A stretch of DNA of 63,999 nt, counting the filler, from Planctomycetota bacterium (lineage in GTDB: Bacteria > Planctomycetota > Planctomycetia > JALXBF01): the NCBI GenBank assembly GCA_026991575.1. It is 5 parts of 5 records of this genome, joined end to end, with 100 filler letters (N's around TTAATTAATTAA, not from the genome) between each part and the next. Parts side by side here need not be neighbours in the genome. Positions count along the whole stretch, not along the records: positions 55,854 to 62,222 come from JALXBF010000067.1; 4 more parts are not named here. One strand, written 5' to 3'. Below the pieces are notes generated by a model that worked only from the letters and a program-made list of their open reading frames with translations, had not been told where the DNA came from and made no database searches. This document shows positions 2,772-63,514 of the stretch, in pieces. The position numbers were made by a program, and so were the translations under genes. Numbering within the stretch: position 1 is the first letter of the stretch; each line of letters starts with the position of its first letter.

Positions 2772-2840
2772 CAAGCCTCATCCGAACAGGCACCAGGGGT
2801 AAGCCTCTGCCACCCTCGCGCCACCTGCTCCGCGCGCCGC

Positions 2841-4241: not shown

Positions 4242-4387
4242 CTCGAACGCCTCGCTGCTGCAGACCCACGTCTCATAGCTTACATCAGTCGTTCCAGTCG
4301 CGCTTGCCGCGGCGGCCGATGCACACGTGGCCGCTTGCGGCACGTGGGCAAAAGGAGTCGGCCGCAGCATGGCGTCGCCGGCCGCGA

Positions 4388-6397: not shown

Positions 6398-6411
6398 AAG
6401 GGCACAGGTGT

Positions 6412-7347: not shown

Positions 7348-7555
7348 GGCGCAATCTCCTGGAGGCCCGGCTGTTGTCGGCTGTGCGCAGGTACGGTTCG
7401 AGCTGCTGGCGCAGGCAGCTGTGACGGTGGGGCACTGCGGGCGGTGCAGCTGCCTCGTACGCCAACGGCAAGCAGCCCGTTCCCGGCAACTTAGAATGAT
7501 ATGGTTTGGCTGTGGTTGGTCTCGTTGTGTCCCAGCATCACCTTGGACCGGAACC

Positions 7556-8350
7556 GTGCTGGCGAAGCGGATCATTCCATGTCTAGACGTGGATCGTGGC
7601 CGCGTGGTAAAGGGGGTTCATTTTGTGAATCTGCGTGACGCGGGTGATCCCGTTGAAGTAGCTGCTCGGTATGAGCGGGACGGGGCGGATGAGCTGGTTT
7701 TCCTGGATATCACGGCGACGCACGAGAGCCGGGGCATCATGATCGATGTCGTGCGGCGGACCGCCGAGGTGGTGTTCATGCCGCTGTGTGTCGGCGGTGG
7801 CATTCGCACGCTGGACGACATCCGTGAACTGCTGAATGCCGGTGCGGACAAGGTTTCGATCAACTCGGCTGCTGTACGTGATCCGGAGTTTGTCCGGGCG
7901 GCGGCACGTCGCTTTGGTAGCCAGTGCATTGTGGTCAACATCGATCCGAAGCGGGTCCGGCGGGACGGTCGCGAGTTCTGGGAGGTGCACATTGCGGGCG
8001 GCCGCGTGCCGACCGGGCTGGAGGCGGTTCAGTGGGCCCGGACCGTGGAACGGCTGGGTGCTGGTGAGATTGTGCTAACGAGCATGGACCGGGATGGAAC
8101 GCAGGCCGGTTATGATATACCGATGACGCGCGCCGTCGCTGAGGCGGTGAGCATTCCCGTAGTGGCTAGCGGCGGAGCCGGTGCCCCGGAGCACCTGTAC
8201 GAGGCGCTCACGGACGGCAAAGCGGACGCAGTTCTCGCGGCCAGCATCTTCCACTACGGGAAACATCCGATACCCGAGGTGAAGGCATACCTGGCGAAGC
8301 GAGGCGTACCGGTGCGGCTGAGCCCCTGTGGCGACGCCGCGTGCCAGTGA
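7556..8350 (+). CDS. hisF: Imidazole glycerol phosphate synthase cyclase subunit
   Basis: [53 protein letters not shown]. Confidence 0.97.
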
Positions 8351-8362
8351 GAGGACTGCTCT

Positions 8363-9597: not shown

Positions 9598-11358
9598 ATG
9601 AACCAGTTCGACGTCTGGTTCCTGGTGCTGGCTCAGGCCAACCAGCCCGCTCCCCTGCACCTGAACCTGATTAAGCTGATTCCGGTGATCCTGATCTACA
9701 TCCTCTGGGTCTTTACGGTTGCCTGGGCGGATCAGGAAAACAGAGAACATCGGCTGCTCTATCTGCAGCGTCGGTTCTGGAACAGCGTGCTGTTCTGGTC
9801 CGGGATCGCCGGTTTGTCCTTGATGTTCCTGATTCCAGAACCGACCGGCCTGGACCCGCTTGTCCGCTGGGTGATCTGGGGGGCAAAGCTGCTGCTGCTA
9901 ATCACCGCCTACCTGATCCCTACCTGGCTGTACATCGTAACTCGCAACCGCAATGTGCCCATCGACGATGCGATCACGCTGGCGACCATCTACGCAGACA
10001 CGATGGCACTGTTGGGGATCAGGGTCCGGGTGCGGCGTAAGAAGAGGTCCATGGGGCCGCCGATCCGTTTTGTGTCCGCCAGCGGTCAGCAGGCCCGGAT
10101 GCAGGAGCCTCAGACCGATGATCCCGAGGAGGCCACGGCACTGGCGGAAGCGTGGATTGCGACCAAGGAGCTGGTTTACGACGCGATTCGGCGGCGCGCG
10201 ACGGACGTGCTCATGGAACCGCGCGGGCAGGCTTGGGCCGTCGTTTACAAGATCGACGGTGTGCTGTTGCCAACCGAGCCGATCGAACCGGACATCGGCC
10301 TTGGCATCCTGACAAACCTCAAGAGCTTCGGCGGTCTGGACCCGAATGAGCGGCGCAAGCCTCAGACCGGCGAGTTCAAGGCGGTGGTCAAATCGGAGGA
10401 GATTCCGATTCGCATCCGTACGCTCGGCACCCGCGCGGGTGAGCGGATGCATCTGCAGATCTTCCAGGAGCAGGTGCATCCGGAGAACCTGGAAGATCTC
10501 GGCATGCGCGAATCGGCCGTTGAGCAACTGCGTCAGGTGCTTGCCCAGCCGGCAGGCATCGTGCTCGTGGCCGGACCGAAGGAGAGTGGCAAGACGACCA
10601 CGGTGCATGCCATGATTCGCGCGGTGGATCGGTTCGTGCGGAACGTGGCCACGCTGGAGGATGACTTCACCTACAAGCTCGATACGGTGACGCGGAACAA
10701 GGTCGACCCGGCGGCGGGCGAGACGCCGTTCACGAAGCTACGCAGCGTTGTCCGAACCGAGCCGGATGTGGTGATGATCGACGAACTGCGCGACGTGGAG
10801 GCCGCGCAGCTTGTGGTGAAGGCCGCCTCGGACCGGCTCTTTGTCATAACGCTGCAAGCAATGGACGTGCCGTCAGCCATAGAGCGGTTCCGTGAGCTAG
10901 TCGGGAACTCGCAGGCGATTGCAGCTCATCTGTTGGCTGTCGTCGCGACCCGCTTGGTCCGGCGGCTGTGCGATGAGTGCAAGGAGGCGTATCAACCAAA
11001 TCCCCAGGCTCTCCAGCGGCTCAACCTGGCTTCCGCGGGCATCAAGGTCTTCTACCGGCCGCCCCCGCCTCCTGAGAAGGAGGAAGAGATCTGCCCGAAA
11101 TGCTCGGGGCTGGGTTACCATGGCCGGATCGGGATCTTTGAGGTGCTCATCGTCAACGATCCGATCCGCCAGGCCATCGCCTCGGGCGCCAACCCGCGGC
11201 AGATCCGCGCCATGGCGCGCACGGCCGGCATGGTGTCACTATTCGAAGATGGCCTTCGCCAGGTGGTTCGCGGTGTGACGTCCCTGCAGGAGATCACACG
11301 CGTCCTGAACCCGACTGGCGCCGCACCTCAGCGGCGTGCCCCCACTCGACAGGCATGA
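9598..11358 (+). CDS. GspE/PilB-family secretion ATPase homologue with N-terminal TM helices and degenerate catalytic boxes
   Basis: About three hydrophobic N-terminal segments; GPKESGKTTT; PDVVMIDELRD; RLVRRLCDEC...CPKCSGLGYHGRIGIFEVL; C-terminal GVTSLQEI. Confidence 0.8.
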   Translation: MNQFDVWFLVLAQANQPAPLHLNLIKLIPVILIYILWVFTVAWADQENREHRLLYLQRRFWNSVLFWSGIAGLSLMFLIPEPTGLDPLVRWVIWGAKLLLLITAYLIPTWLYIVTRNRNVPIDDAITLATIYADTMALLGIRVRVRRKKRSMGPPIRFVSASGQQARMQEPQTDDPEEATALAEAWIATKELVYDAIRRRATDVLMEPRGQAWAVVYKIDGVLLPTEPIEPDIGLGILTNLKSFGGLDPNERRKPQTGEFKAVVKSEEIPIRIRTLGTRAGERMHLQIFQEQVHPENLEDLGMRESAVEQLRQVLAQPAGIVLVAGPKESGKTTTVHAMIRAVDRFVRNVATLEDDFTYKLDTVTRNKVDPAAGETPFTKLRSVVRTEPDVVMIDELRDVEAAQLVVKAASDRLFVITLQAMDVPSAIERFRELVGNSQAIAAHLLAVVATRLVRRLCDECKEAYQPNPQALQRLNLASAGIKVFYRPPPPPEKEEEICPKCSGLGYHGRIGIFEVLIVNDPIRQAIASGANPRQIRAMARTAGMVSLFEDGLRQVVRGVTSLQEITRVLNPTGAAPQRRAPTRQA

Positions 11359-11367
11359 GGTGCTGAG

Positions 11368-11937
11368 ATGGTCACGCTAATCGACGTTGCGCTCGCTGGT
11401 CTGGTGCTGGGCCTGACGTACCTGCTGTCCAAAGAAGGACTGTGGGGGGCTGCTCTGGCGTTCTTCGACACACTGTTCGCCGGACTGATCGCGTTCGGCA
11501 CCTTCGAGTTTCTGGGCAGCCGCATGGAAGCAAACATCGGCTTCTGGGGAGGGTTCCCTCGGTTCATCTGCCTGGTGGGCGTGTTCTGCATCACGGTGAG
11601 CATCCTGCGGGTGATCACCGACAAACTTGGCCCACGGCGGGTGAAGTTCCCGGATCTGGCCGAACAGACGCTCAAGTTTGTCTTCGCCGGCCTGACCGCC
11701 TGGATCGCCACCGGAATGGTCATCTGCATGTACCAGGTTGCCCCGGTCTCGAAGGCACCGTTCCAGTACCCCTTCGGCAAGGCGCTGTTCGGTATTGGGA
11801 TCGACCGCCACTGGCTGATGATCGTTCACTACAGCACCCGCTACACGTTCGGCTGGGACGAGCAGAGCGCGTTCCCACCACCATCGCAGTTCATCCAGGA
11901 GTACGAAGAGTTCCGGCCGTTCGGCAAGAGATTCTAG
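11368..11937 (+). CDS. CvpA-like (colicin V production family) membrane protein
   Basis: Four hydrophobic segments, EGLWGA motif after first helix; follows the ATPase gene by 9 nt. Confidence 0.6.
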   Translation: MVTLIDVALAGLVLGLTYLLSKEGLWGAALAFFDTLFAGLIAFGTFEFLGSRMEANIGFWGGFPRFICLVGVFCITVSILRVITDKLGPRRVKFPDLAEQTLKFVFAGLTAWIATGMVICMYQVAPVSKAPFQYPFGKALFGIGIDRHWLMIVHYSTRYTFGWDEQSAFPPPSQFIQEYEEFRPFGKRF

Positions 11938-12055
11938 ACGCGCGAGGCTGCAGGAGGCTGCCAGCCGGGCGACACCGGGCCTATCATGAGGTGGACGGTG
12001 CCGGTCAACGGGATCGGCTACCGTATGGACTCTCTGGTCAGTAGGAGCTAGCCCG

Positions 12056-12283
12056 GTGCGTCCAAAGCCGAAATTCACGCCGGGAGGCCTGCGCTGCCTC
12101 TACTGCGAAAAGCCACTGAGCTGTGCCATTTGCGGTAAGCTTGTCGCGTTCCGCACCCAACAGGAGCACGACGCGTTCTTTGAGCCGGAATCGGTGGTCC
12201 GCTGCCCGTACTGCAATCACACGCTTCGCTGTCGGTACTGCGGTGCCGTTTACGCTGGCACGGACGAAGAGTACGAGGCATAA
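12056..12283 (+). CDS. Small double zinc-ribbon protein (four CxxC motifs)
   Basis: CLYC, CAIC, CPYC and CRYC in 75 aa; AGGAG RBS upstream of GTG 12056. Confidence 0.7.
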   Translation: MRPKPKFTPGGLRCLYCEKPLSCAICGKLVAFRTQQEHDAFFEPESVVRCPYCNHTLRCRYCGAVYAGTDEEYEA

Positions 12284-12334
12284 TGGCCGCCAAGAGTACG
12301 CCGCGCAGCTTGTCGTGCCACTGGAGGTGCTGAC

Positions 12335-12919
12335 ATGTCCAATGGCAACCGTCGTGTGGGCAAGGCCCAGCAGATCGCCGTTGCCCTCGCAGCCGCCCTG
12401 GCTACTTCGGTAGCCAGCTCTGACAGTGAGGCCGCTCAGCTGAACGACGCGATCCGCAGGGTCGAGCGGTACTGTGCCGCTAGCTGGCGAGCAGCTGGCA
12501 TTCCGCAGCAGGAATGGGCCGATTGCACGCAGGAGGTGCTGACCAGGCTGCTGGAGCGGCTGGGGCAGCCCCGGAGCGACTGCTCCGCACAGGCTTATCG
12601 CGAACTGAAGCGGGCCGTCTGGTCCACGGCGAAGGCGTATCAGAGGCGACCGCGCGGTGCCGGCCTGCTGCATGAAGGGCTGACGCGCAACACGGCCACG
12701 CCCGATGAGACGCTCGCCCGAACAGAGTGGTTCGATCGGCTGTTGCAGCAGGTTACGCCGCGGCAACGTCGCATCCTGGAACTGTGGCTTGCCGGCGCCT
12801 CGATCGGTGAGATCGCACGGGACCTGGGTCTGCCAGCCGAGCGGGTTAGCGACGAGAAGTACAAAGCGCTGCGGCGGATCAAGCAGATCATCGCAGCCGA
12901 GGCAGACAGCAGCAGCTGA
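12335..12919 (+). CDS. ECF-like RNA polymerase sigma factor (sigma70 family)
   Basis: DCTQEV region-2-like motif; region 4 HTH RQRRILELW..GASIGEIARDLGLPAERVSDEKYKALRRI; GGAGGT RBS. Confidence 0.75.
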   Translation: MSNGNRRVGKAQQIAVALAAALATSVASSDSEAAQLNDAIRRVERYCAASWRAAGIPQQEWADCTQEVLTRLLERLGQPRSDCSAQAYRELKRAVWSTAKAYQRRPRGAGLLHEGLTRNTATPDETLARTEWFDRLLQQVTPRQRRILELWLAGASIGEIARDLGLPAERVSDEKYKALRRIKQIIAAEADSSS

Positions 12920-12975
12920 TCGTCAACGGTACCGGTCCCGGCGGCAGGACGACGCCGGGACCGGTTGGCTGACGG

Positions 12976-13827
12976 CTAACCCCAGTATTTCTGCACCATT
13001 TGCTTCATGAAGCGTAGCCCTTCGCGGGCCACGTGCTCCTCGCTCGGAAACATCTTCCGCCAGATGCAAGTCGCGGCGGCTAGATCAGGCAAGGCCTGGC
13101 CGAAGGCCTCAATCACCAGCCAACCGTCGTAGCCGATTTCTTTGAGCGTAGCGAACGTCTCCTCCCAGTGCACATGGCCCTCGCCAGGTGTGGAGCGGTC
13201 GTTTTCCGAGATATGCACGTGGATGATCCGCTTGCCGCCTGTGCGGATCGCCTCGGCTATGCTCTTCTCTTCGATGTTCGCGTGGAACGTGTCGTACATC
13301 ATGCGGAAGCCGGCATGGTTCACTTCGTCGACCAGCCGTGCGGTGTCCTCGGCGCAGTTGACGAAGTAGGTTTCGAACCGATTGAGGTACTCCAGCGCAA
13401 GCGGCACGCCCGCCGCCTGGGCGTAGGGGGCCAGCTGGCGGAACGCCTCCACCGCCCACTTCCATTCCTCTTCCGTGCGACCGCGTCCGACGAGCCTACC
13501 GACTGGTGAGACGTACGGGCCGCAGAGCACTTCGGCGCCGAGCACGTGGCAGATATCGACAGCCCGCTTCAGGTGCTCCAGTGCCCGCTCGCGGACGACT
13601 CGATCGTCGCTGATCGGATTGGCGTCCTCCGGAACGACCGTCACGACGGTACAAGCGAGACCGAGCTCCTCGAGCTTGCGGCGAGTGTCCCGAGCTTTCG
13701 CTTCGTCGAACGCAAACACGGGCAACTCAACGCCGTCAAACCCCCACTGCTTGATCTGCTCTAGCAGTCGGTAATGCTCCGGACCCACGTCGGTGGTCCA
13801 GAGCAGAAGGTTCATGCCGTACTTCAT
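12976..13827 (-). CDS. Sugar phosphate isomerase/epimerase, D-tagatose/D-psicose 3-epimerase-like
   Basis: GFDGVELP, LEYLNRFE, YDTFHANIEE, HVHISENDR, WLVIEAF. Confidence 0.9.
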   Translation of the reverse strand: MKYGMNLLLWTTDVGPEHYRLLEQIKQWGFDGVELPVFAFDEAKARDTRRKLEELGLACTVVTVVPEDANPISDDRVVRERALEHLKRAVDICHVLGAEVLCGPYVSPVGRLVGRGRTEEEWKWAVEAFRQLAPYAQAAGVPLALEYLNRFETYFVNCAEDTARLVDEVNHAGFRMMYDTFHANIEEKSIAEAIRTGGKRIIHVHISENDRSTPGEGHVHWEETFATLKEIGYDGWLVIEAFGQALPDLAAATCIWRKMFPSEEHVAREGLRFMKQMVQKYWG

Positions 13828-13839
13828 GGCAGCTCTCCG

Positions 13840-14982
13840 TCAGATCCGGGTCACTTCCTGCCAGGTGCCGGTCTGCGCCGACTTGGCCACCGCATCGCAG
13901 ACGTACTGGGTAGCCAGGGCGGTGCGGAACGTCGGTTCAGCAGGGGTACCGGTCTGGAGCCCTTTGAGGAAGTCGGCCAGGGCGTTGATGAACGTGTGCT
14001 CGTAGCCGATGGTCGTACCGGGCACCCACCAGTTCTTGTGGTACGGGTGCTCGAAACCGGTCACGTGGATGCTGCGCCAGCCGCGTAGCCGTGGGTCGTC
14101 GGAGTGCTCGAAGTACTCGAGACGGTGAGGATCCTCCAGATCGAAGTAGATCGAAGCGTGTTCGCCGTTGATCTCGAAGGCGTTCTTGTTCTTGCGGCCA
14201 CGGGCATAACGGGTTGATTCGAATGTGCCGACCGAACCGTTCTCGAACCGAGCGAGGAACAACGTGGCGTCGTCGATCTTGACCGGTTCCGGAGCCCCTT
14301 TCTCCTGATGGACCCGCTCCTTGACGAACGTCTCCATCAGGGCATTGACCGCGACGATCGGACCGTTCAGCCACATGGCTGTGTCGATCGAGTGGGACAG
14401 CAGGTCGCCCAGAACGCCGGATCCGGCCACGTTCGCGTCCAACCGCCAGAAGGTATGCCCTCCCTGCGGTACGCTCGGATCGATGGTCCAGTCCTGCAGG
14501 TAGACGGCGCGGTAGTGGAAGACTCGGCCGAGCTTCCCTTCCTGCACCACTTCGTGTGCCAGCGTGATCGCGGGCACTCGTCGGTAGTTGAACCAGACGA
14601 AGTTTGGCACGCCGGCTTCCTCGACCGCCTCGACCATCTCGCGTGCCTCGGCGCCCGTGCGGGCAAGTGGCTTTTCGCACAGCACCATCTTGCCCTTTTC
14701 GGCTGCGGCGATCGCGATGTCGTGGTGCGTGTCGTTGGGAGTGCAGATATCGATGGCATCGATGTCGTCCCGCTCAACCAGCTTGCGCCAGTCGGTTTCC
14801 CAGGACGCGTAGCCCCAGCGGTCAGCAAACGCTTTGACCTTCTCTTCGTTCCGCCCACAGATCGCCTGCAACACCGGCTCGTACTCAAGGTCGAAGAACT
14901 TGTTGACCTTGTAGTACGCGTTCGAATGGGCCCGCCCCATGAAGCCGTAGCCGATAACGCCCACGCGCAGTTTCTTGCCCAT
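13840..14982 (-). CDS. Gfo/Idh/MocA family oxidoreductase
   Basis: GYGFMGRAH Rossmann motif, [18 protein letters not shown]. Confidence 0.92.
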
Positions 14983-15031
14983 GGTCTTGCTCCTTTCTGT
15001 GCCTGAATCGCTCTGGCTGGTGTTCGCTCGG

Positions 15032-15952
15032 CTAGAAATCGGGCGTGTACTTCTTGCGGTACTCGTCCAGGAAGCGGATCGACTGTTCGGTCACCTCCCA
15101 GGCGTTCGGCCAGAAGCACAGGTCGATCGTCCACCAGTCGCTCGGACAGCCGCAGGTGAGCAGCTCGGGGATGATGGCGTCGAAATCAAGCAGTCCTTCA
15201 CCGAAGGGCCGGTGTGTTGAGGTCTCGTCGTCGTGAAGCGTCCCGTCGGAATCGATCAGGTGGATGTGGCCGATGCGGCCACGGAGCAAGCGAAGCAGGC
15301 CAAGTGCCCCATCCGCCAGCGTCTCCTTCTCGCCAGGCTGTCGGGCACCTTCCGCAGCCACCATGTGCGCATGGCAGGTGTCGAAGAGGATGCCAAAGTT
15401 CCACGCGCCGTGCGACCGCACCTCATCGACGATCTCCACAATTTCGCTGGGCTTATTGAACGCAAACCCAGGCTCGAACTCCCAGACCACTCGGATGCCG
15501 TGATCCGCCGCGATCCGGGCGCACTTGACCCAGGCTTTCACGACGCGCTCGCGGCCCAGCTTCGGGTCGACGCCAGTCTTCTCAAAACAGTCGGGCGGTT
15601 CAACCGTGTCCACGCGGATGACGTCGATGCCCATGTCTTCGGCAAACAGCACGTTCTTGGCAAATTCGGCAATGTACGGTCCGGAGTCCTCGACCGTGGG
15701 AAGTTTGTGCATCCAGAGGTTAGCGGCCAGCCCGCTGAACGCCAGGCCTTTGTCCTCCACGTAGCGCCGCAGATAGAGCCGACTCTCACGCGTACGTAAT
15801 GAGTCGGGGTTCGGGTGAGGCGGGAAGGCGCCGAACTCAACACCGTCCATGCCCAACTGGGCCAACTTGTCCACGACCGTGTAGAAATCGACCGGGTTCT
15901 TCTCATACGGTCCGAAACAGTACGCCCAACTCCCAATAGACAGTTTTGGCAT
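15032..15952 (-). CDS. Xylose isomerase-like TIM-barrel sugar isomerase/epimerase
   Basis: [38 protein letters not shown] before ATG 15952. Confidence 0.85.
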
Positions 15953-24335: not shown

Positions 24336-24435
24336 NNNNNNNNNNNNNNNNNNNNNNNNNNNNNNNNNNNNNNNNNNNNTTAATTAATTAANNNNNNNNN
24401 NNNNNNNNNNNNNNNNNNNNNNNNNNNNNNNNNNN
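24336..24435. other. Artificial contig-joining spacer
   Basis: 44 N + TTAATTAATTAA (stops in all frames) + 44 N. Confidence 0.99.
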
Positions 24436-48729: not shown

Positions 48730-48829
48730 NNNNNNNNNNNNNNNNNNNNNNNNNNNNNNNNNNNNNNNNNNNNTTAATTAATTAANNNNNNNNNNNNNNN
48801 NNNNNNNNNNNNNNNNNNNNNNNNNNNNN
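48730..48829. other. Artificial contig-joining spacer
   Basis: 44 N + TTAATTAATTAA + 44 N. Confidence 0.99.
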
Positions 48830-55753: not shown

Positions 55754-55853
55754 NNNNNNNNNNNNNNNNNNNNNNNNNNNNNNNNNNNNNNNNNNNNTTA
55801 ATTAATTAANNNNNNNNNNNNNNNNNNNNNNNNNNNNNNNNNNNNNNNNNNNN
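55754..55853. other. Artificial contig-joining spacer
   Basis: 44 N + TTAATTAATTAA + 44 N. Confidence 0.99.
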
Positions 55854-55959
55854 CAGGGGCGTCGCATCGAGCGCAACAATGGCACAGGGGCCGCGTTGAG
55901 CTGATCGGGAAACAAACAGGGCAACGGTAGCTGGATGCAAGGTGCAGAGGGCGCTAACG

Positions 55960-56643
55960 ATGGTACAGTTCGAGCGTGCGTTCCGCGCGTTGACCGGCTT
56001 TGAGCCGTTTCGGTGGCAGCAGCGGCTGTACGAACGGTTCTTGGCGGGGGACATTCCCGATGCCTGCAACCTCCCCACGGGCAGTGGCAAGACGGCCGTC
56101 ATCCCGATCTGGCTGATCGCCCTTGTCAACGGCGTGGAAAACGGGGTGCGATTGCCGCGTCGGTTGGTCTATGTCGTACATCGCCGCACCGTGGTGGACC
56201 AGGCCACCGATGTGGTTCTTTAGCTCCGAGCCCGACTGATCGACCCGGCGACGGTCCAAGAACCAGCGCTGCGCGGCGAGCTGGAGAAGTTGCGACGCGC
56301 ACTGGCTGCACGGAGCGTGATCGGAAACGATGTGCCGCTGGCAGTCAGTACGCTCCGTGGCGAGCTGGCCGACAACGAGGAGTGGGAGCTGGACCCATCG
56401 CGTCCGGCAGTGATTGTCGGGACCGTCGATATGGTGGGCAGCAGACTGCTCTTTTCCGGTTACGGGGACGGTCGGCGCAGCCGAGCGCACCATGCCGGAC
56501 TTCTCGGATTCGACTGTTTGTTTGTCCACGATGAGGCCCATCTAACACCTGCTTTCAGCGATCTGTTACGTCAGGTGCGTGACCTGATGGTTCAGGAATA
56601 CTCGCGCATGCCCGCCGAGTGGCAACACTATGCAAGACCGTAG
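55960..56643 (+). pseudogene. cas3: Type I-G (I-U) Cas3 helicase, 5' fragment with internal TAG, truncated after the DEAH motif
   Basis: FEPFRWQ, LPTGSGKT, PRRLVYVVHRRTVVDQ, in-frame TAG at 56221-56223, then in the same frame STLRGELADN, GTVDMVGSRLLFSGYG, HAGLLG, HDEAHL; no N-terminal HD domain, as expected for I-G. Confidence 0.9.
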
Positions 56644-57452
56644 TGTATCTTCCCGAGAGCCTGTTGCCGTATCGGCCGTACGTGGCGTTCGAGCTGCGTG
56701 ATGCTCAGGATCGTCTTCGCGCCGTGCCGCCGCAACGTGCGGTCGCGATCGCGGCTCATTTGCGTTCCGCTGCCTGTGAGAAAGCCAAGGCCGAGTCCGG
56801 CCATCAGTTTCCCGGAGGGGCGGGGCGCTACGTGGCCGGACACGCTCAGAATTCGCGGGATGCGTTCGAACGGTTCAGTTACCTGCCATTGCCAACGGTC
56901 CGCATGGGTGGCTACGCCGACGGTAAGATCCGTCGCGTGCTGATTGCAGAGCCCTTCGGATCGACCGGTGAACACGTGCGATGGGCGGCGCGCGTGCTCC
57001 GCGACGTGCCGCTGACGGACCGTTCCGGCACAACTGTGGCCTGGCTCGTTCCCGCTCGCCGCCGCGATCACGTGGTGCGGTGCTACGTCGGGCCCGGACG
57101 GGAGTGGTTCACGGTCACGCCCGTCGTGCTGCCCGGGCATGACGATCACAAGCCTGCCAAGCGGCGCAAGCTGCTGGCGAAAGCGATTAGGCAAGCGGGA
57201 ATCCCACTGGCCGCAATCGAAGATCTCATCGCGCGCAACGCGCCGTTCTGGCCAGGCGGACTTCATCCCACATGCTATCACCGACCGGACTACCTGCAGC
57301 ACTACCCACTGTGTCACGTTTATGTACGCTTTCGCGAAGAAGTCCGAGGCCCGATCGCCGTGGGCGCCGGGCGGCACTGTGGGCTTGGCGTGTTCGCAAC
57401 CGGCCTGGAGCGAGCGCTACGTGACGAGGCGGTGGAACAGAGGGGGGACTGA
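56619..57452 (+). CDS. csb2: Type I-G Csb2 (Cas5/Cas6 fusion), C-terminal Cas6-like half only
   Basis: VAGH, FSYLPLPT, DGKIRRVLIAEP, W.TVTPVVLPGHDD, RAMP G-loop VRGPIAVGAGRHCGLGVF; only about 270 aa, with an in-frame stop at 56580 upstream. Confidence 0.85.
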   Translation: MATLCKTVVYLPESLLPYRPYVAFELRDAQDRLRAVPPQRAVAIAAHLRSAACEKAKAESGHQFPGGAGRYVAGHAQNSRDAFERFSYLPLPTVRMGGYADGKIRRVLIAEPFGSTGEHVRWAARVLRDVPLTDRSGTTVAWLVPARRRDHVVRCYVGPGREWFTVTPVVLPGHDDHKPAKRRKLLAKAIRQAGIPLAAIEDLIARNAPFWPGGLHPTCYHRPDYLQHYPLCHVYVRFREEVRGPIAVGAGRHCGLGVFATGLERALRDEAVEQRGD

Positions 57453-57463
57453 ACCGTGCCGTT

Positions 57464-57546
57464 GCTGGCCGGTGAGGCCGCAGCGGTGCTGTACCGCTTG
57501 ACTGGACCAGGGGGGCGAGCAAGTGTCTGCGACGCGTCCGGCCAGC
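57464..57546. terminator. Inverted repeats between convergent csb2 and cas4-cas1
   Basis: GCTGGCCGG (57464) / CCGGCCAGC (57538) with an inner AGCGGT/ACCGCT hairpin; no U-tract. Confidence 0.3.
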
Positions 57547-57553
57547 GTTCTGC

Positions 57554-59392
57554 TCAGCGTACCCGGAACACCGGATAGCGGCCAAGCTCACCGCGGATCA
57601 GGCGCGCCAGCAGTCGAGCTTGCAGCTCCAACAGGCCGCGGTAGGTGACCTGATAGCCAAATAGCGGATGGGTCACCAGCTGGTTCATCCGCTGCTCGTA
57701 CGCCCGGAAGAATGCTGAACGGCCGGCCTGGTTCAGATTCACGCCGGAGCCAGCACGCACAAAGTGCGTCGGCTTGACCATCCCCCGATTGATCGCCGTA
57801 TACACGACCGCGTCGGCAATCACCGGCCGAAACGGCTCCATCAGGTCCAGAGCCAGCGCGGGACGACGCGGCCGCATCTGGTGATAGAAGCCGAGATATG
57901 GGTCCAGCCCAACGAGCTGACAGACGATCGTCAGGTCTTTACACAACACCGAGTATGCCAGCGAAAGCAGCGCATTGACCGGGTCGCGTGGCGGCCTGCG
58001 GTTCCGCTTGGCAAAATCGAACCGCCACACGTCCTGTGTGTCACCGTTGCCACCGCTGCCCTGTTCTTCCTCGTCGAGTGGTTCCTTGCCCCGCTTGATC
58101 AGCCCATCGAACGCTTGGAAGTAAAAGCGCCCCGCAGCTCCCTCGATGCCCCTCAGCGTGTCAATGTCCCTGGCAGCCCTCGCATCGCGAGCCAGTTGCT
58201 TCAGGCTTGCCAGCACCTGCTGAGGCGGCTCGATATGGTTGCGCTGCAGAATCACCCGCTGATTCTCGATCTTGCCGGCAACGATCTCCCGCGCAAACTC
58301 CAGGCAGAACCAGCCGCGCTCTGCCATCACGTGCTGCTCATGGCGTAAGAGAGCGTTCGTGGCGTCGAGGCCGTGTAGTAGACCACAGAACCAGCCGCCG
58401 TACGTGAAGAAGGCCACCGGAATCTGCTCGTTGACCAGCGTCCGTAGCGCCTGGGTCGTGCACTGCACATTGCCAAAAATCGCCACGTGCGACAGGTCCT
58501 TGCACAGGAACTCTTGCCTGTCGCCTTCCGGAAGCTGCACGATGAGTCGCCGGCCGCTAACGCGAACGTAGGCCCCCTGGGTGTTCAAGTACAGCGGCTT
58601 GCCGCGTGTGTCCCGGATCGACAGCGTCCGCACCGGGACGTTATCCGGCAGACGACCATCGTACTGCTGTTGCTCCAGTTCCGCAAACAGCATGCGTTGC
58701 CGTGTCGTTCCCGGCCGGGTCTTCACCGCGGCCGCCCAGGTTTCGTCCGGCAGGCAGACCGGCGCCAGCGAGCAGCCGTCGCACTTGGGACTGTTGAAAA
58801 GCGGCGGCGGAATGCGGCGCGCCTCGGCCAGCTCCTTAGCCTTGGCCAGCTCTGCCAGAAACCAGCGCTCCTGCTCCGGCCCCACACGCACGCGCACACG
58901 CTGCTTGCTGGCACAGTAGTAGACGATCGCCTCGTCGCACTCGTAGCCGTTGTCTCTCAGAATCAGCACCTGGCCGATCGCCTGCACCAGCTCTGGCGGC
59001 CACGGTTCGAGCCGCCCATCCTCCAGCTCCCGCGGCCTGCCCCTCTTGTAGTCGACCGGCACGACCTTACCGTTCTCTGCCTCGACCAGATCCAGCACCG
59101 CTACCACCCCGAGGCGGTCACTGCCCAGGTGGACCGAACGCGCTTTCACCGGCAGACCGCCTGAGATCTGTTCCGGATCGGGCAGCTCTTGGTGGTCCAC
59201 ATGCACGCGGCGATGCTTGCTTTCACCGTCCACAGTGTACTGGTTCGGGATGAATGCCTGGTCGACGTGCTCCAGGTAAAACAGCCGCGGACAGTAAACG
59301 AACTTCCGCAGCATGCTTAACGGCAGATAGTCCTCTGGCGTAGCGGTCTGCTCAGGAGTCGGACGATCTGCTGGGTGCACGTCGTTGGCCAT
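57554..59392 (-). CDS. cas1: Cas4-Cas1 fusion, type I-G style, apparently intact
   Basis: Cas4: YCPRLFY, DLVE, VDYKRG, KCDGCSLAPVC (four Fe-S Cys). Cas1: IFGNVQ.TTQA, GIEG.A.R.YF, NRRPPRDPVNALLSLAYS, GFYH, ALDLMEPFRP. Confidence 0.96.
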   Translation of the reverse strand: MANDVHPADRPTPEQTATPEDYLPLSMLRKFVYCPRLFYLEHVDQAFIPNQYTVDGESKHRRVHVDHQELPDPEQISGGLPVKARSVHLGSDRLGVVAVLDLVEAENGKVVPVDYKRGRPRELEDGRLEPWPPELVQAIGQVLILRDNGYECDEAIVYYCASKQRVRVRVGPEQERWFLAELAKAKELAEARRIPPPLFNSPKCDGCSLAPVCLPDETWAAAVKTRPGTTRQRMLFAELEQQQYDGRLPDNVPVRTLSIRDTRGKPLYLNTQGAYVRVSGRRLIVQLPEGDRQEFLCKDLSHVAIFGNVQCTTQALRTLVNEQIPVAFFTYGGWFCGLLHGLDATNALLRHEQHVMAERGWFCLEFAREIVAGKIENQRVILQRNHIEPPQQVLASLKQLARDARAARDIDTLRGIEGAAGRFYFQAFDGLIKRGKEPLDEEEQGSGGNGDTQDVWRFDFAKRNRRPPRDPVNALLSLAYSVLCKDLTIVCQLVGLDPYLGFYHQMRPRRPALALDLMEPFRPVIADAVVYTAINRGMVKPTHFVRAGSGVNLNQAGRSAFFRAYEQRMNQLVTHPLFGYQVTYRGLLELQARLLARLIRGELGRYPVFRVR

Positions 59393-59410
59393 AGTGCTAC
59401 TCCGCGAACC

Positions 59411-59704
59411 TCACACCACATAACTCGGCGGGTCGATCTTGTGAAACGGACGCCCGACCGTGCGGATGTCACGCTCAGCCAGTGAGCTGCTCGGACCGAA
59501 GTTGAGGAAAAGAACCTGATCCTCGTCGTGCTTGATGACCGCGGCCAGCTCAGTCATGCAGGCGATGAGTTCGCATTCGTCGAGGTGGCATTCGAAGACG
59601 GAGTATTGGATGCGGCGCCCGAAGTTCTCCATGATGCGGGCGACCTTACGGAGCCGTTTGTCGTTGCAGATGTCGTAGGCTACGATCCAGACGGTTCTCC
59701 CCAT
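59411..59704 (-). CDS. cas2: CRISPR-associated Cas2
   Basis: IVAYDICNDKRLRKV, FGRRIQYSVFEC, IKHDEDQV; GAGGTG RBS before ATG 59704. Confidence 0.96.
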   Translation of the reverse strand: MGRTVWIVAYDICNDKRLRKVARIMENFGRRIQYSVFECHLDECELIACMTELAAVIKHDEDQVLFLNFGPSSSLAERDIRTVGRPFHKIDPPSYVV

Positions 59705-59889
59705 GCCGGTCACCTCACTTGGTAGCGACCGACCCGCCGCAACACCAGCATAACAAAATAGGCAATCTGGGTGGAATAGCAAATCTTGGGTCCTGTGAGG
59801 GATGGGTGCTCCGCCTGGCCCTTGTACAATTGGTCACGCGGCGGCATGTTCACCGTTGCCTTGTCGGGTGCCAGTCCAGGGGGTGGTCG

Positions 59890-61251
59890 ATGACAGGTGA
59901 GACCGCAGCCGGTTCCGAGGCGCTGGCGTACACGCCGGCGCAGATTGTGGAGTACTTGGATCGGTACATCGTTGGGCAGGAGCAAGCGAAGCGCGCCGTC
60001 GCGCTTGCGATTCGCAACCGCTGGCGCCGACTCCAGCTCGACGAGCGCCAGCGCCAGGAGATTACCCCGAAGAACATCTTGCTCATCGGGCCCACCGGCG
60101 TGGGCAAGACGGAGATCGCTCGCCGGCTGGCACAGCTGCTGCGGGCCCCGTTCGTCAAGGTGGAAGCTACCAAGTTCACCGAAGTCGGCTACGTAGGCCG
60201 GGACGTGGAGAGCATGGTACGTGACCTGGTCAAGGTTGCGATCGCGCTGGTGCGGGAGGAGCAGGAGGCGATCGTGCGGGCGGAGGCTGAAGCCAGGGCG
60301 GAGGCACGGCTAGTGGACGTGCTGCTGAGCTCCGGGGCAGTGTCTGAGCTGACGGCCACCGACCCGGCCGCCAGAGGCGGCGCCCGGGAGCGGCTTCGCG
60401 ACATGCTCCGCCGCGGCGTCCTCGACAACCGCCGGATCACGCTAGAGTTGCCGGGCCGCAAGGTGGGGGTCCGCGTCGTGCCGCTGCCGGGCATGGAGCA
60501 ACTGGAGCAGGATCTGGAGCGGATGTTCCGTGATCTGTTGCCGAAGCCACCTCAGACGCGAGAGATGACGGTGGCCGAGGCGAGAAAGATCTTCATCGAC
60601 CAGGAGCTGGAGAAGCTGCTCGACGAAGACAAGATCACTCAGGAAGCGCTGCGCAGGGCCGAGGAATCGGGCATCATCTTCGTGGACGAGCTTGACAAGA
60701 TCTGTGCCACGGGCACCCGCGTCGGGGGCGACGTGTCGCGCGAGGGGGTACAACGGGATCTGCTGCCGATTATTGAGGGGACGACCGTCTCGACCCGCTA
60801 CGGCTCCATCCGCACGGACTTCATCCTCTTCATCGGCGCAGGCGCCTTCCACATGGCCCGCCCCTCGGACCTGATGCCCGAACTGCAGGGGCGGTTCCCA
60901 ATTCGCGTCGAGCTTCATCCGCTGAAGAAGGAGGATTTCCTGCGTATCTTGAAGGAGCCGGAAAGCTCGATCATCCGCCAGTATCAGGCACTGCTTCGCA
61001 CCGAGGGGGTCGAGCTTACGTTCCGCGACGATGCCCTCGAAGCGATTGCAGACATTGCTTATCGCGTAAACCGGCAGACACAGGACATCGGAGCACGGCG
61101 GCTTCATACGATTGTTGAGCGGGTGTTGGAGGACGTTAGCTTTGATGCGCCGGCACTGAGCGGTCAGACCATTGTGGTCGACCGGGACTATGTGCTCGAG
61201 CGGCTGAAAGACGTCGTCACCGACGAGGATCTTGCACGCTATGTCCTTTAG
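59890..61251 (+). CDS. hslU: ATP-dependent protease ATPase subunit HslU (ClpY)
   Basis: [35 protein letters not shown] pore loop, [34 protein letters not shown]-terminus. Confidence 0.97.
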
Positions 61252-61813
61252 GTCCGGTTCAACGGCGGCATTCTATGGCGGCAGCCGGCACGGTACGACC
61301 GTCTTGTCCGTTCGCCGTGGTTCGAAGGTGGCCATTGGAGCGGACGGCCAGGTTACCTATGGCGATACCGTACTGAAGGCGAACGCTACCAAGATCCGCC
61401 GCCTCGCCGACGGCGAAGTGCTGGTCGGCTTTGCCGGTGCGACCGCAGACGCGTTTGCGTTGTTGGAACGGTTCGAGGCCAAACTGCGCGCTCATCCGGG
61501 CAATATCGTGCGCGCTGCCGTCGAGCTGGCCAAGGACTGGCGCACGGACCGGGCGTTGCGGCAGTTGCAAGCGATCCTGGCGGTGGTCGACGCACGGACC
61601 AGCCTGCTGGTCACGGGCGTGGGCGACGTGCTGGAGCCTAGTGACGGTATCATCGGCATCGGTTCAGGGGGACCGGCCGCGACAGCGGCCGCCCGAGCCC
61701 TGTTACGGCACACGGATCTGGACGCGGCCACCATCGTGCGCGAGGCACTCCGAATTGCGGCCGAGATCGACGTCTACACCAACGATGCCATCACAGTCGA
61801 AGAGCTGCCGTGA
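61241..61813 (+). CDS. hslV: ATP-dependent protease peptidase subunit HslV (ClpQ) with short propeptide
   Basis: [51 protein letters not shown] overlaps the hslU 3' end. Confidence 0.96.
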
Positions 61814-62222
61814 GCACCAGCGACCGAGGCCACCGTCTACCGCTGAACACCACGCTGTGGTCAGTTACCGGCGCTGCCTGCACGCTGGGTGAGCTGCTGG
61901 CGCACGATCGAACGCTGATCGTCTTGCTCCGCCACTTGAACTGAATTGCTTGCCAGGATCACCTGGTTCAGGTGAACGAGGCGTACGGCGAATTCGCCAG
62001 ACGCCGTGCCGGTGTGCTGGCGGTGGGCTTCGAACCTCCCGAACATCTTGCTGCGTGGCAGCCGATCAGGCCGTTGGACTTTCCCGTAGTGGTCGATCCG
62101 GACAGAGCGCTCTACCGCTCGGTCGGCGCTGGCCGTGTCCCACTGCGGCGGCTCCTGACGCCACGGGTGATCCGATACTACTGGCGGCTGTATCGGCGCT
62201 GGGGCATGCCGCGCAAGCCGCG
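61810..62222 (+). CDS. Probable selenoprotein: AhpC/TSA-like (SelL/PRXL2-related) redoxin with UxxC motif (3' truncated)
   Basis: GTG overlaps the hslV TGA; frame reads ...[13 protein letters not shown](61942)[10 protein letters not shown]...VLAVGFE...[21 protein letters not shown]-like hairpin follows. Confidence 0.82.
61959..61975 (+). promoter_or_regulatory. Candidate bacterial SECIS hairpin
   Basis: TCACCTG-GTT-CAGGTGA: 7-bp stem, loop starting GU, 21 nt after the UGA. Confidence 0.65.
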
Positions 62223-62322
62223 NNNNNNNNNNNNNNNNNNNNNNNNNNNNNNNNNNNNNNNNNNNNTTAATTAATTAANNNNNNNNNNNNNNNNNNNNNN
62301 NNNNNNNNNNNNNNNNNNNNNN
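62223..62322. other. Artificial contig-joining spacer
   Basis: 44 N + TTAATTAATTAA + 44 N. Confidence 0.99.
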
Positions 62323-62461: not shown

Positions 62462-63514
62462 ACGCGCGAGAAACAGTGGCGCACGTCTTCGTGCTCCTTG
62501 CGGTACCGCTGACCCTTGCGGCTCAGGAAGGTGACTTCCGCATTCCGCATCCCGTGCCGGACCGGTTTCCTTTGAACGGTGCTTACCTGTACGCAGAGAC
62601 CAACTTCGGCTACCCTCACGGTGGCGTGGACATCCTGGTGAACACCGGCGACTCGGTGTACTCGGTGTGCGACGGGGTCGTGGATGGCAAAGGATACGAG
62701 CCGGAGGGCTTTGGTAAGTACGTGCGCCTGCGCTGGCGCTGGAACGGCCACTGGGTCTGGTTCTACTACGCGCACCTCTCACGGCACGATTTCCTCAACG
62801 TCGGCGACAGTGTGAGGGTTGGGCAGCTCGTGGGCCTGGCCGGGAGTACCGGCAACAGCACAGGACCGCACCTCCATTTCGAGATTCGTGAGAACACGCC
62901 GGATCCGGGGCGGCACCGGAATCGTCGCAACCCGGAGCTGTGGTTTGCCATGCGCGGGATGGGCGCGATCTACGGACGCGTGCCGGATGACCCCGGCGGC
63001 ACGCGTCTGGACGTGACGCCGGATCCGAAACCGCGTCCGCCCTACGTGAACTACGGATGGACTCTGACGTACACNNNNNNNNNNCGAGAACTGGGCCGTG
63101 GGGGACGTGGTCCCGGGCACGTACGTGATCACTTCGCAGGACGGGCGCTACCGTCGGGTCGTCACGGTGCACGCGGGCGAAGTGGTGAACGCGGATCTGG
63201 CTGCGGGAGTGACGCAGTCCGGCGCAGAGCCAAAACCGACCCGTTACGGGCTTGTGCGGGCCTGGCCCAATCCCTTCCACGGGTGGCTTCACGTGCGGTG
63301 TTTGCTCAGCACCGGCGAACCGGTGGAAGTGGAAATCCTGGACCTGCTCGGGCGCAATCTGTACCGCGAGACCCTGCCGGGCGGACCGGTGGGGCTGGGG
63401 GAGTGGATCTGGGACGGACGGGACCGGCGCGGGGTTCAGGTGCCCCGGGGCCGCTACGTGGTTCGGGTCAGAACGCCTTCGACCGCTGTGACGGCGAAGG
63501 TGGTGCGCTGGTAG
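62458..63514 (+). CDS. Secreted M23 family metallopeptidase with C-terminal FlgD-Ig / T9SS type A-like domain; spans a 10-N scaffold gap
   Basis: Signal peptide, HGGVD (HxxxD), YAHL, STGPHLHFEIR; after the gap (63075-63084, frame change) AWPNPF..ILDLLGR..WDGRDRRG..VPRGRYVVRV. Confidence 0.82.

What the first reader, a model, noticed from the sequence alone, without database searches (positions are those of the whole stretch)
55960..57452. Collapsed type I-G interference operon: cas3 5' stub joined to the Cas6-like half of csb2
Seen: Cas3 motifs run from the Q-motif and Walker A to DEAH and stop at ...HYARP-TAG (56643), before helicase motif III. Csb2-like sequence (VVY..P.RP..AF.L through the G-loop) begins at the same point in another frame. 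The rest of the helicase, the HD nuclease, cas8g, cas7 and the Cas5-like half of csb2 are all absent. Inference: one multi-kb deletion with its junction near 56636-56643 removed the Cascade core. The surviving piece matches the Csb2 C-terminal domain that processes pre-crRNA, its frame is uninterrupted, and an in-frame GTG (56643) overlaps the cas3 TAG (TAGTG). It could be expressed as a stand-alone Cas6-like RNase. This is either decay (for example escape from self-targeting) or repurposing into a processing-plus-adaptation module without interference.
Basis: partly seen in the sequence, partly recalled or inferred. Interest (0 to 1): 0.7.

Follow-up and report, generated by a model that had tools for sequence, protein, structure and literature searches.

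The report
Deletion scar in type I-G CRISPR operon
This is a broken copy of a CRISPR immune operon in which about 4.7 kb were cut out, joining the start of the cas3 gene to the back half of the csb2 gene; it is an ordinary kind of gene decay, made a little more interesting because an uncut version seems to survive in the same sample.

Summary
On a 6.4-kb contig (window 55854-62222), a Cas3g N-terminal stub (profile positions 1-196 of 854) ends at TAG 56641-56643. The C-terminal Cas6-like half of Csb2 (profile 216-490 of 492) starts at the same point in another frame.

Alignments place the break at 56637/56638. In 68 of 80 intact type I-G loci the equivalent points lie a median 4.7 kb apart, spanning the rest of cas3, cas8g2, cas7g and the Cas5-like half of csb2.

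An independent assembly of the likely source run bridges the junction at high depth. It also shows two low-depth branches exactly at the junction that read on into cas3 and csb2. An undeleted allele therefore seems to co-occur, and the deletion looks recent.

The "adaptation plus processing without interference" idea is not supported. The same genome has an intact, divergent I-G interference module (contig C60) beside an I-G-type array. Contig-end overlaps place that array about 8 kb from this locus.

The remnant does contain a complete, confidently folding Cas6 domain. Use as a stand-alone RNase is therefore possible but unsupported (about 0.1).

Verdict: real, ordinary decay.

The parts
55960..56643 (+). 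cas3g 5' stub (227 codons plus TAG): Q motif, Walker A and DEAH are present. Motif III onward and the HD domain are missing.
   Evidence: TIGR02621 positions 1-196 of 854, 248.5 bits against a cut-off of 400. Alignment with 8 Cas3g proteins. 57-64% identity to ~900-aa Cas3g.
56221..56223 (+). In-frame TAG at codon 88 of the cas3 stub.
   Evidence: Translation. '1 TAG' inside the match. The likely source run's contig shows no other letter here.
56637..56645 (.). Deletion junction. cas3-derived sequence ends at 56637. csb2-derived sequence is certain from 56645 and probably starts at 56638.
   Evidence: Protein alignments. In run X1 the long contigs end at 56637 and start at 56645, a 67-nt contig bridges them, and two low-depth contigs branch off exactly here.
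56619..57452 (+). csb2 3' half: open frame of 277 codons from GTG 56619, or 269 from GTG 56643. It holds the complete Cas6-like domain.
57453..57553 (.). 101-nt convergent spacer between the csb2 remnant and cas4/cas1, with an imperfect inverted repeat (57464-57483 / 57527-57546).
   Evidence: the repeat finder pair I12, 75% complementary. No terminator-like site was called here.
57554..59392 (-). Intact cas4g/cas1g fusion gene (612 codons).
   Evidence: NF049935, 666.5 bits against a cut-off of 560, profile positions 1-546 of 546. It is the only match over the cut-off in the genome.
59411..59782 (-). cas2, upstream of cas4/cas1 on the minus strand. The 5' end of the ORF is probably over-extended.
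   Evidence: TIGR01573, 42 bits against a cut-off of 24.5. PF09827, 69.7 bits, residues 31-95.

Best explanation
A canonical type I-G CRISPR-Cas locus (cas3g, cas8g2, cas7g, csb2, then cas2 and cas4/cas1) lost about 4.7 kb in one deletion. The cut runs from cas3 codon 227 to the linker just upstream of the Cas6-like domain of csb2. The two ends were joined out of frame, so the cas3 frame stops at once. The stub also carries a nonsense codon at codon 88.

The locus can no longer make a Cascade or a Cas3, so its left part is a pseudogene scar. The cas2 and cas4/cas1 genes next to it are intact. They lie inverted relative to the order seen in the nearest relatives.

Inferred steps:
- These genes serve as the adaptation module for the genome's other, intact but divergent, type I-G interference module.
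- That module sits on the far side of an I-G-type array about 8 kb away.
- The canonical effector genes had become redundant.
- The deletion is recent, because an undeleted form appears to co-occur at about one sixth to one ninth of the depth in the same sample.
For: Shown:
- Family matches and coverage of both pieces.
- Sharp, frame-shifted junction.
- The best relatives of both pieces come from the same canonical loci. Nine contig-length pairs are shared between the lists.
- 68 of 80 related loci have cas3 followed by csb2 on one strand. The equivalent points lie 4468-7103 bp apart (median 4736). The interval was annotated in two of them as the rest of cas3, cas8g2, cas7g and the csb2 N-half; in L036 the cas7g stretch between cas8g2 and csb2 was not scanned.
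- In run X1 a 67-nt contig at depth 55.9 bridges 56608-56674, between contigs of depth 38.4 and 42.1.
- A 1128-nt contig (depth 7.15) shares only 56608-56637 and runs on. A 224-nt contig (depth 4.4) comes in at 56637-56674.
- Translated by hand in the cas3 and csb2 frames, their loose ends match the conserved blocks that follow or precede the junction in homologues. These are F-Q-V-L-D-L-T-A against (I/V)-R-V-(I/L)-(E/D)-L-S-A, and P-P-x-R-x3-Y against P-P-x-K-x3-F.
- No cas8g2 was found in the MAG, and cas7g was found only on C60. Completeness is 97.8%.
- Intact I-G effector genes on C60.
- 127-nt contig-end overlaps link C119, C67 and C35. C35 ends, and C60 starts, in arrays of one and the same 36-nt repeat.
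- That repeat has the same 5' hexamer, stem-loop layout and 3' nonamer as most arrays beside canonical I-G loci. I counted 35 of 38 by eye.
- Both pieces deviate only mildly at conserved columns. csb2 deviates at 4 of 59, against a mean of 1.4 and a maximum of 7 in 81 homologues. cas3 deviates at 5 of 83, against a mean of 1.1 and a maximum of 5 in 111. This fits recent loss.
Against: - The run laid is probably the one the genome was assembled from. It is kept as contigs, so it is a second assembler and not independent reads.
- The bridging contig is deeper (55.9) than either flank. That is not what a simple major/minor split predicts.
- Contigs drop rare variants. I cannot show that the low-depth branches belong to the same strain, nor that they carry the TAG at 56221.
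- Only 30 letters of each loose end were seen, and I translated them by hand.
- The link from C35 to C60 rests on a shared repeat, not on an overlap.
- That cas2 and cas4/cas1 serve the C60 module is inference.
- Three of the 80 related loci had enough flank but no cas3 hit upstream (L058, L072, L082).
Confidence: 0.8

Rival explanations
1. Repurposing. The deletion left a free-standing Cas6-type RNase of 269-277 aa. It is expressed and processes pre-crRNA from the nearby I-G-type array (or other arrays), working with the adaptation genes and with effectors encoded elsewhere.
For: - All three His that are at least 95% conserved are kept.
- Deviation at conserved columns is within the range of full-length homologues, 4 of 59.
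- In-frame GTG codons lie at 56619 and 56643.
- Isolated Csb2 C-domains fold, bind the hairpin more tightly and cleave repeats in vitro (PMC9638904 passages; bioRxiv 10.1101/2022.08.19.504415 section 7).
- Free-standing Csb2-C-like ORFs of about 288 aa occur naturally after csb2 in 5 of 80 related loci.
- An array of the canonical I-G repeat type lies about 8 kb away.
Against: - If the deletion is recent, an open frame and kept residues say nothing about selection.
- One of the 4 deviations is W to C right before the invariant His.
- No Shine-Dalgarno-like sequence lies before either GTG (read), and no promoter-like site was found in 55854-59900.
- The upstream stub is interrupted by a stop 420 nt before the junction, so translational coupling is unlikely.
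- The genome already has a full Csb2 next to that array and a separate Cas6.
- No family of C-half proteins resembling this remnant turned up. Its own 269-aa cluster sits on a single contig, and the short hits start at scattered positions and mostly lie on short contigs.
Confidence: 0.1
2. Assembly artefact. The cas3 stub and the csb2 half were joined by a chimeric assembly of two loci or two strains.
For: - The contig is short (6369 bp) and comes from a 191-contig metagenome bin.
- The assembly graph forks exactly at the junction.
Against: - A second assembler gives a contig that bridges 56608-56674, with zero differences and the highest depth of the region.
- The flanks have equal depth, 38.4 and 42.1.
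- There is no nucleotide similarity between C67 and the genome's other I-G locus that could mislead an assembler.
- The alternative branches are 5-9 times shallower.
Confidence: 0.03
3. Escape from autoimmunity. A self-targeting spacer made the canonical I-G effector toxic, and cells that deleted the Cascade core survived.
For: - The deletion removes exactly the genes needed for interference and spares the adaptation genes.
- Loss of cas genes as an outcome of self-targeting is a known pattern (recalled, not read here).
Against: - None of 47 assembled spacers has a convincing match elsewhere in the genome. There is one 22-nt match with 1 mismatch, E 0.002, from the other repeat class.
- Only 2 whole spacers and 1 partial spacer of the I-G-type array are assembled, so the test is weak.
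- The second I-G effector next to the same array is intact. It would also have to be spared or be incompatible.
- The nonsense codon at cas3 codon 88 would already have disarmed the locus if it came first.
Confidence: 0.1
4. Old, fixed scar. The deletion is fixed in this lineage, and the low-depth branches come from a different co-occurring strain or species that still has the intact locus.
For: - Only 30 shared letters link each branch to the locus, and contigs hide rare variants.
- A second sample of the same study holds a variant of the stub. One contig has 6 differences in 371 nt.
- The stub has a stop and sits at the top of the homologues' range for changes at conserved columns.
Against: - Both pieces are far from heavily decayed. 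There is one stop in 504 codons and there are no frameshifts.
- The branches attach at exactly the two sides of the junction. That needs near-identical flanks.
Confidence: 0.2

Closest known systems
Canonical type I-G (formerly I-U) CRISPR-Cas loci of the GSU0051-GSU0054 type, studied in Thioalkalivibrio sulfidiphilus (PMC9638904)
   Same: Both remnants are 50-64% identical to the Cas3g and Csb2 proteins of such loci. The locus has a Cas4/Cas1 fusion and Cas2. An array of the same repeat type is nearby.
   Different: About 4.7 kb are missing: the cas3 helicase C-part and HD domain, cas8g2, cas7g and the Cas5-like half of csb2. The stub has a stop codon. cas2 and cas4/cas1 are inverted. The array is not adjacent.
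Decayed type I-E operons of Escherichia coli, in which a cas3 5' part is joined to the 3' part of a Cascade gene
   Same: The anatomy is the same: a break inside cas3, a break inside a downstream Cascade gene, several kb lost, an out-of-frame joint, and adaptation genes or the array left behind.
   Different: A different subtype (I-G) and an uncultured vent bacterium. Here the break falls at a domain linker and leaves a whole Cas6 domain. An undeleted form seems to co-occur.
Isolated Csb2 C-terminal (Cas6) domain made in the laboratory (PMC9638904, cut at R260/R262; bioRxiv 10.1101/2022.08.19.504415, delta-N construct)
   Same: The remnant corresponds to that construct. It begins in the linker and spans the whole Cas6 fold.
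   Different: Those are engineered proteins with shown activity. Here neither expression nor activity is known. According to PMC9638904 the C-domain alone does not support effector assembly.
Natural free-standing Csb2-C-like ORFs (about 288 aa) directly after csb2 in Pyrinomonas-type loci (L036:10831-11694, also L037, L040, L042, L072)
   Same: They match only the C-terminal half of the Csb2 profile (positions 229-492, E 6e-26) and are of similar length.
   Different: They form a separate paralogue, about 27% identical to the remnant over 108 residues. They sit beside a full csb2, and in L036 beside cas10. They are not products of a deletion.

Membership tests
Cas3g (NCBIfam TIGR02621) | Full-length match over the curated cut-off (400 bits), covering helicase motifs I-VI and the C-terminal HD nuclease | tested here: not met
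   248.5 bits, profile positions 1-196 of 854, one TAG inside. The alignment ends just before the S-A-T block.
Cas3g (NCBIfam TIGR02621) | N-terminal helicase motifs (Q, Walker A, DEAH) homologous to Cas3g | tested here: met
   57-64% identity to ~900-aa Cas3g proteins. The motifs are aligned. 5 of 83 near-invariant columns are changed.
Csb2 / Cas5-Cas6 fusion (NCBIfam TIGR02165, Pfam PF09609) | Score over the family cut-off | tested here: met
   110.6 bits against a cut-off of 45, and PF09609 at 58.1 bits against 21.
Csb2 / Cas5-Cas6 fusion (NCBIfam TIGR02165, Pfam PF09609) | N-terminal Cas5-like domain, needed for effector assembly according to PMC9638904 | tested here: not met
   Only profile positions 216-490 of 492 are present. 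The alignment starts at about column 222 of 503.
Cas6-type endoribonuclease | Complete double-RRM Cas6 fold | tested here: met
Cas6-type endoribonuclease | Catalytic histidine (H503 in T. sulfidiphilus Csb2; H520 in B. animalis Csb2) | tested here: inconclusive
   All 3 His that are at least 95% conserved among 81 homologues are kept. I could not align the two studied proteins, so the mapping is not made. W to C lies next to the invariant His.
Cas6-type endoribonuclease | Cleavage of the cognate CRISPR repeat | not testable with these tools
   Needs the purified product and repeat RNA.
[quoted passage not shown] | cas8g and cas7g present in the locus | tested here: not met
   None on C67. cas8g2 was not found in the MAG, and cas7g only on C60. 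Completeness is 97.8%.
[quoted passage not shown] | Cas4/Cas1 fusion and Cas2 | tested here: met
   NF049935 at 666.5 bits against a cut-off of 560. Cas2 at 42 bits against 24.5.
[quoted passage not shown] | Adjacent CRISPR array | tested here: not met
   No array on C67. An I-G-type array begins at C35:7551. By a 127-nt overlap that is about 7.4 kb beyond the end of C67, and about 8 kb beyond the end of cas2.

The most novel reading that the evidence does not exclude
The deletion was not neutral. By cutting at the Csb2 interdomain linker it created a free-standing Cas6-type RNase. This enzyme is kept, together with cas2 and cas4/cas1, as a processing-plus-adaptation unit. It would feed crRNAs from the neighbouring canonical-type array to a divergent I-G effector whose own Csb2 is only 28% identical in this domain. 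That would be a natural replay of the split between Cas5 and Cas6.
Probability: 0.1. Interest if true: 0.5.

Novelty: new member of a known kind. Interest (0 to 1): 0.3.

Why it matters
Loss of interference genes with retention of adaptation genes is a common fate of CRISPR-Cas loci, so the main finding is ordinary.

Three points give it some value:
- The deleted and undeleted forms seem to co-exist in one natural sample. That would let the age and fitness effect of such a deletion be measured directly.
- The genome carries two unlike type I-G effector sets around one array and only one I-G adaptation module. This is a natural case of effector redundancy and replacement.
- The break leaves exactly the domain that two laboratories showed to be an active RNase on its own. 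A cheap in vitro test could say whether such scars can create new stand-alone Cas6 enzymes.

Tried and rejected
- Expression: no RNA holder was listed for the stretch, so nothing can be said about expression.
- Search for the undeleted allele: a scan of metagenome contigs with the 30 window bases left of the junction found nothing.
- Close relatives of Cas4/Cas1 in genome contigs: only 2 loci, at 45% and 41% identity. No sister genome is available. With nearest homologues at 50-64% identity, dN/dS was not attempted.
- Withdrawn figure: the first constraint count for the cas3 stub (14 of 92) was an alignment artefact at the stub's end. It is replaced by 5 of 83 over residues 1-212.
- PDB sequence search with a Csb2 profile: 0 hits.
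- Promoter and terminator scan of 55854-59900: 0 promoter-like sites, and 2 terminator-like sites against 2.4 expected.
- Repeats: no array or meaningful repeat on C67.
- Taxonomy: HslU relatives are all 48-57% identical and mostly proteobacterial MAGs, which is uninformative.
- Self-targeting: of 47 spacers, one weak 22-nt match.
- Earlier-findings look-ups by place and by sequence: nothing.
- Paper search for truncated or pseudogenised csb2 (listing only): nothing relevant seen.
I counted by eye from the output instead.
- Run X3 laid no contigs.
Full report
WHAT THE WINDOW IS

The 63,999-base window is not one molecule. It consists of five contigs of a 191-contig draft genome (4.96 Mb, 97.8% complete), joined by artificial linkers of N runs around a 12-base all-frame stop sequence. 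The finding lies on contig C67, which is window 55854-62222 (6369 bp). Statements about what is "absent" therefore first apply to this contig only.

THE OBSERVATION

Window 55960-56640 (+) matches the type I-G Cas3 family (TIGR02621) over profile positions 1-196 of 854. It does so in two pieces, because of an in-frame TAG at 56221-56223.

Read through with X at that stop, the 227-residue stub is 57-64% identical to the N-termini of ~900-residue Cas3g proteins. An alignment with eight of them shows the Q motif, Walker A and DEAH. Homology runs to the very last residues, A-R-P. In the homologues these sit just before the conserved block ending in E-L-S-A-T, which is helicase motif III. The next codon is TAG (56641-56643).

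In another frame, an ORF runs from GTG 56619 to TGA 57452 (277 codons). A second in-frame GTG at 56643 overlaps the TAG and gives 269 codons. This ORF matches Csb2 (TIGR02165) positions 216-490 of 492 and Pfam PF09609. It aligns at 50-55% identity with the C-terminal halves of ~480-residue Csb2 proteins, starting at V-V-Y-L (56640).

ONE DELETION OF ABOUT 4.7 KB

Both pieces have their best relatives in the same kind of locus. Nine pairs of hits share a contig length.

A scan of species-representative genomes gave 80 loci with a Csb2 relative.
- In 68 of the 80, a relative of the stub lies upstream on the same strand.
- The distance between the points equivalent to the two sides of the junction is 4468-7103 bp (median 4736; 5th-95th percentile 4585-5120).
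- Of the other 12 loci, 9 have too little upstream flank, and 3 (L058, L072, L082) have flank but no hit.
- In L071 the interval holds the rest of cas3g, cas8g2, cas7g and the N-half of csb2. In L036 the rest of cas3g, cas8g2 and csb2 were found, and the stretch between cas8g2 and csb2 was not scanned.

The five loci with the highest full-length Cas4/Cas1 identity (46-49%: L049, L071, L077, L104, L109) have csb2, cas2 and cas4/cas1 on one strand. C67 has exactly that order with the cas2-cas4/cas1 segment inverted. The adaptation genes therefore plausibly belong to the same ancestral locus as the two remnants. This step is inferred.

IS THE JOINT REAL, AND HOW OLD IS IT?

One public run (X1, a hydrothermal vent metagenome) holds all sampled words of the stretch. 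It may be the source of the genome. It is kept as contigs from another assembler. Laid on 55854-58200, they show the following.
- A 7071-nt contig (depth 38.4) ends at 56637 and reaches 6287 nt beyond the start of C67.
- A 4894-nt contig (depth 42.1) starts at 56645.
- A 67-nt contig (depth 55.9) covers 56608-56674 without a difference. The joined form is thus assembled independently and at the highest depth of the region.
- A 1128-nt contig (depth 7.15) shares only 56608-56637 and then runs on to the right.
- A 224-nt contig (depth 4.4) comes from the left and joins at 56637-56674, with two other letters.

I translated the 30-letter loose ends in table 7 by hand. In the cas3 frame, the right-running branch continues after A-R with ten residues. 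The last eight of these (F-Q-V-L-D-L-T-A) fit the block (I/V)-R-V-(I/L)-(E/D)-L-S-A that follows in all eight aligned Cas3g proteins. In the csb2 frame, the left branch ends with P-P-x-R-x3-Y two residues before the join. This fits the consensus P-P-x-K-x3-F-x2-V-x-Y-L of 60 Csb2 proteins.

The simplest reading is a deletion bubble: a major deleted allele and a minor undeleted one in the same sample.

Caveats:
- The run is probably not independent of the genome.
- Contigs hide rare variants, so I cannot say that the minor form is the same strain, or that it carries the TAG at 56221.
- The bridging contig is deeper than its flanks, which a simple split does not predict.
- A second sample of the same study holds a variant of the stub. 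One contig has 6 differences in 371 nt.

DEGREE OF DECAY

No close relative exists. The best are 55% (Csb2), 64% (Cas3) and 45% (Cas4/Cas1) identical. dN/dS is therefore out of reach.

Instead I counted changes at columns that are at least 95% conserved.
- The csb2 remnant differs at 4 of 59 such columns. The 81 full-length homologues, each scored the same way, have a mean of 1.4 and a maximum of 7.
- The cas3 stub differs at 5 of 83 over residues 1-212. The 111 homologues have a mean of 1.1 and a maximum of 5, and 4 of them tie with the stub.
- An earlier figure of 14 of 92 was an alignment artefact and is withdrawn.

Both pieces are thus at the upper edge of the normal range. There is one nonsense codon and no frameshift. 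This fits recent loss. It also means the open csb2 frame cannot be taken as a sign of selection.

THE REST OF THE GENOME

Contig C60 carries, on one strand:
- an 895-residue protein with a Cas7g domain (residues 474-660);
- a full Csb2 (564 aa);
- a full Cas3g (1010 aa, 731.8 bits);
- a "Cas3-extension" protein.

These are only 28% (Csb2, over 211 residues) and 46% (Cas3, over 84 residues) identical to the remnants. There is no nucleotide similarity between the contigs. This is a second, divergent I-G effector set and not a source of misassembly.

No cas8g2 was found anywhere in the genome, and cas7g was found only on C60. The only I-G-type Cas4/Cas1 fusion is the one on C67.

Contig ends overlap by 127 bases in the order C119 (reversed), C67, C35. 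C35 carries housekeeping genes. It ends with a G/T-rich leader-like stretch, one 36-nt repeat (C35:7551-7586) and 23 bases of spacer. C60 begins inside an array of the identical repeat (C60:46-81 and 118-153), and no other contig has this repeat.

This repeat has the 5' hexamer, stem-loop layout and 3' nonamer seen beside canonical I-G loci. That holds for 35 of 38 arrays found in the related loci, counted by eye. Two of the other three were caught only in part.

The likely map is therefore, in order:
- the scar;
- cas4/cas1 and cas2 (inverted);
- hslU and hslV;
- about 7.4 kb of housekeeping genes;
- the leader and array;
- the divergent I-G effector genes.

The C35-to-C60 step of this map is inferred.

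Elsewhere in the genome there are four arrays of a different 37-nt repeat, a reverse transcriptase next to a Cas1, and a Cas1b-Cas2-Cas4 set with a separate Cas6.

COULD THE REMNANT WORK ON ITS OWN?

Biochemically it could. For T. sulfidiphilus Csb2, the passages I read in PMC9638904 report four things:
- there is a linker at R260;
- the isolated C-terminal domain folds, cleaves the repeat and binds the hairpin more tightly than the whole protein;
- H503 is catalytic;
- the C-domain alone does not support effector assembly.

Section 7 of bioRxiv 10.1101/2022.08.19.504415 reports the same for a delta-N form of the B. animalis protein.

Free-standing Csb2-C-like ORFs also occur naturally after csb2 in 5 of the 80 related loci.

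Several points argue against function here:
- The deletion seems recent.
- One of the four deviations is W to C next to the invariant His.
- There is no Shine-Dalgarno-like sequence before either GTG, and no promoter-like site was found.
- The stub upstream is broken 420 nt before the joint.
- A full Csb2 sits by the array, and a Cas6 exists elsewhere in the genome.
- No RNA data could be found.

I put the stand-alone RNase reading at about 0.1.

CAUSE OF THE DELETION

For self-targeting, 47 assembled spacers were compared with the genome. Only one weak 22-nt match appeared, from the other repeat class. Only three spacers of the I-G-type array are assembled, so this is a weak test. Redundancy with the second effector set, followed by neutral loss, is the more economical reading. 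It remains an inference.

COMPARISON AND VERDICT

The anatomy is a cas3 5' part joined out of frame to the 3' part of a downstream Cascade gene, with several kb lost. Earlier notes of this scan describe the same anatomy for type I-E operons of E. coli (e1-099007, e1-095113; AI notes that I did not check).

This is the same kind of scar in a type I-G locus of an uncultured vent bacterium. It is a real feature and an ordinary process. Its modest points of interest are the apparent polymorphism, the two unlike I-G effector sets around one array, and the domain-exact cut.

Noticed in passing
window 24336-24435, 48730-48829, 55754-55853, 62223-62322: Artificial linkers (44 N, a 12-base all-frame stop sequence, 44 N) join five separate contigs (C41, C42, C53, C67, C83). 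Neighbourhood across them is not real. A separate run of 10 N lies at 63075-63084.
   Followed up: yes
G000 contig C60 (locus L011) 479-8819, minus strand: A second, divergent type I-G interference module. It holds an 895-aa protein with a Cas7g domain at residues 474-660 and an unassigned ~470-aa N-terminal part, then Csb2 (564 aa), Cas3g (1010 aa) and a 'Cas3-extension' protein (365 aa). No separate large subunit was recognised.
   Followed up: partly
G000 C35:7400-7609 and C60:1-160: A G/T-rich leader-like stretch and the first repeat sit at the end of C35. C60 starts inside an array of the identical 36-nt repeat. The two contigs probably flank one array that broke the assembly.
   Followed up: partly
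G000 contigs C47, C96, C182, C187 (loci L031, L033-L035): Four arrays (7, 8, 15 and 19 repeats) share a different 37-nt repeat. On C96 the array lies next to a Cas1 preceded by a group-II-intron-like reverse transcriptase and unassigned ORFs. An IS1634-type transposase fragment lies beside the C182 array.
   Followed up: partly
G000 contig C164 (locus L032) 10022-15511: Cas1b, Cas2, Cas4 and a separate 342-aa Cas6. No recognised effector genes lie in the 20 kb read.
   Followed up: no
L036:10831-11694 (Pyrinomonas methylaliphatogenes K22), also L037, L040, L042, L072: A free-standing ~288-aa ORF matches only the C-terminal half of the Csb2 profile. It lies directly after the full csb2, and in L036 directly before a Cas10/Csm1 gene. 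It may be a Csb2-derived Cas6 that serves a type III system.
   Followed up: partly
window 59719-61813: hslU precedes hslV and the two ORFs overlap by 20 bases. This is the reverse of the usual hslV-hslU order (recalled). The long 5' extensions of the hslU and cas2 ORFs overlap and are probably not real.
   Followed up: no
window 57833-58008 (inside cas4/cas1): In run X1, short low-depth contigs (90-95% alike) and one 'skips 115' joint lie here. They are most likely conserved cas1 sequence from other organisms in the metagenome.
   Followed up: no
G000 contig C19:4622-6382: A 744-aa open frame gives partial matches to the Cas3g profile (positions 35-417 and 665-727, 131 bits). This is another Cas3-like helicase and was not examined.
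   Followed up: no
L032:11993-13411 (G000 C164): A prepilin with an H-X9-DG C-terminal domain. As far as I recall, this domain is typical of Planctomycetota and their relatives. It is the only hint to the organism's phylum that I saw.
   Followed up: no
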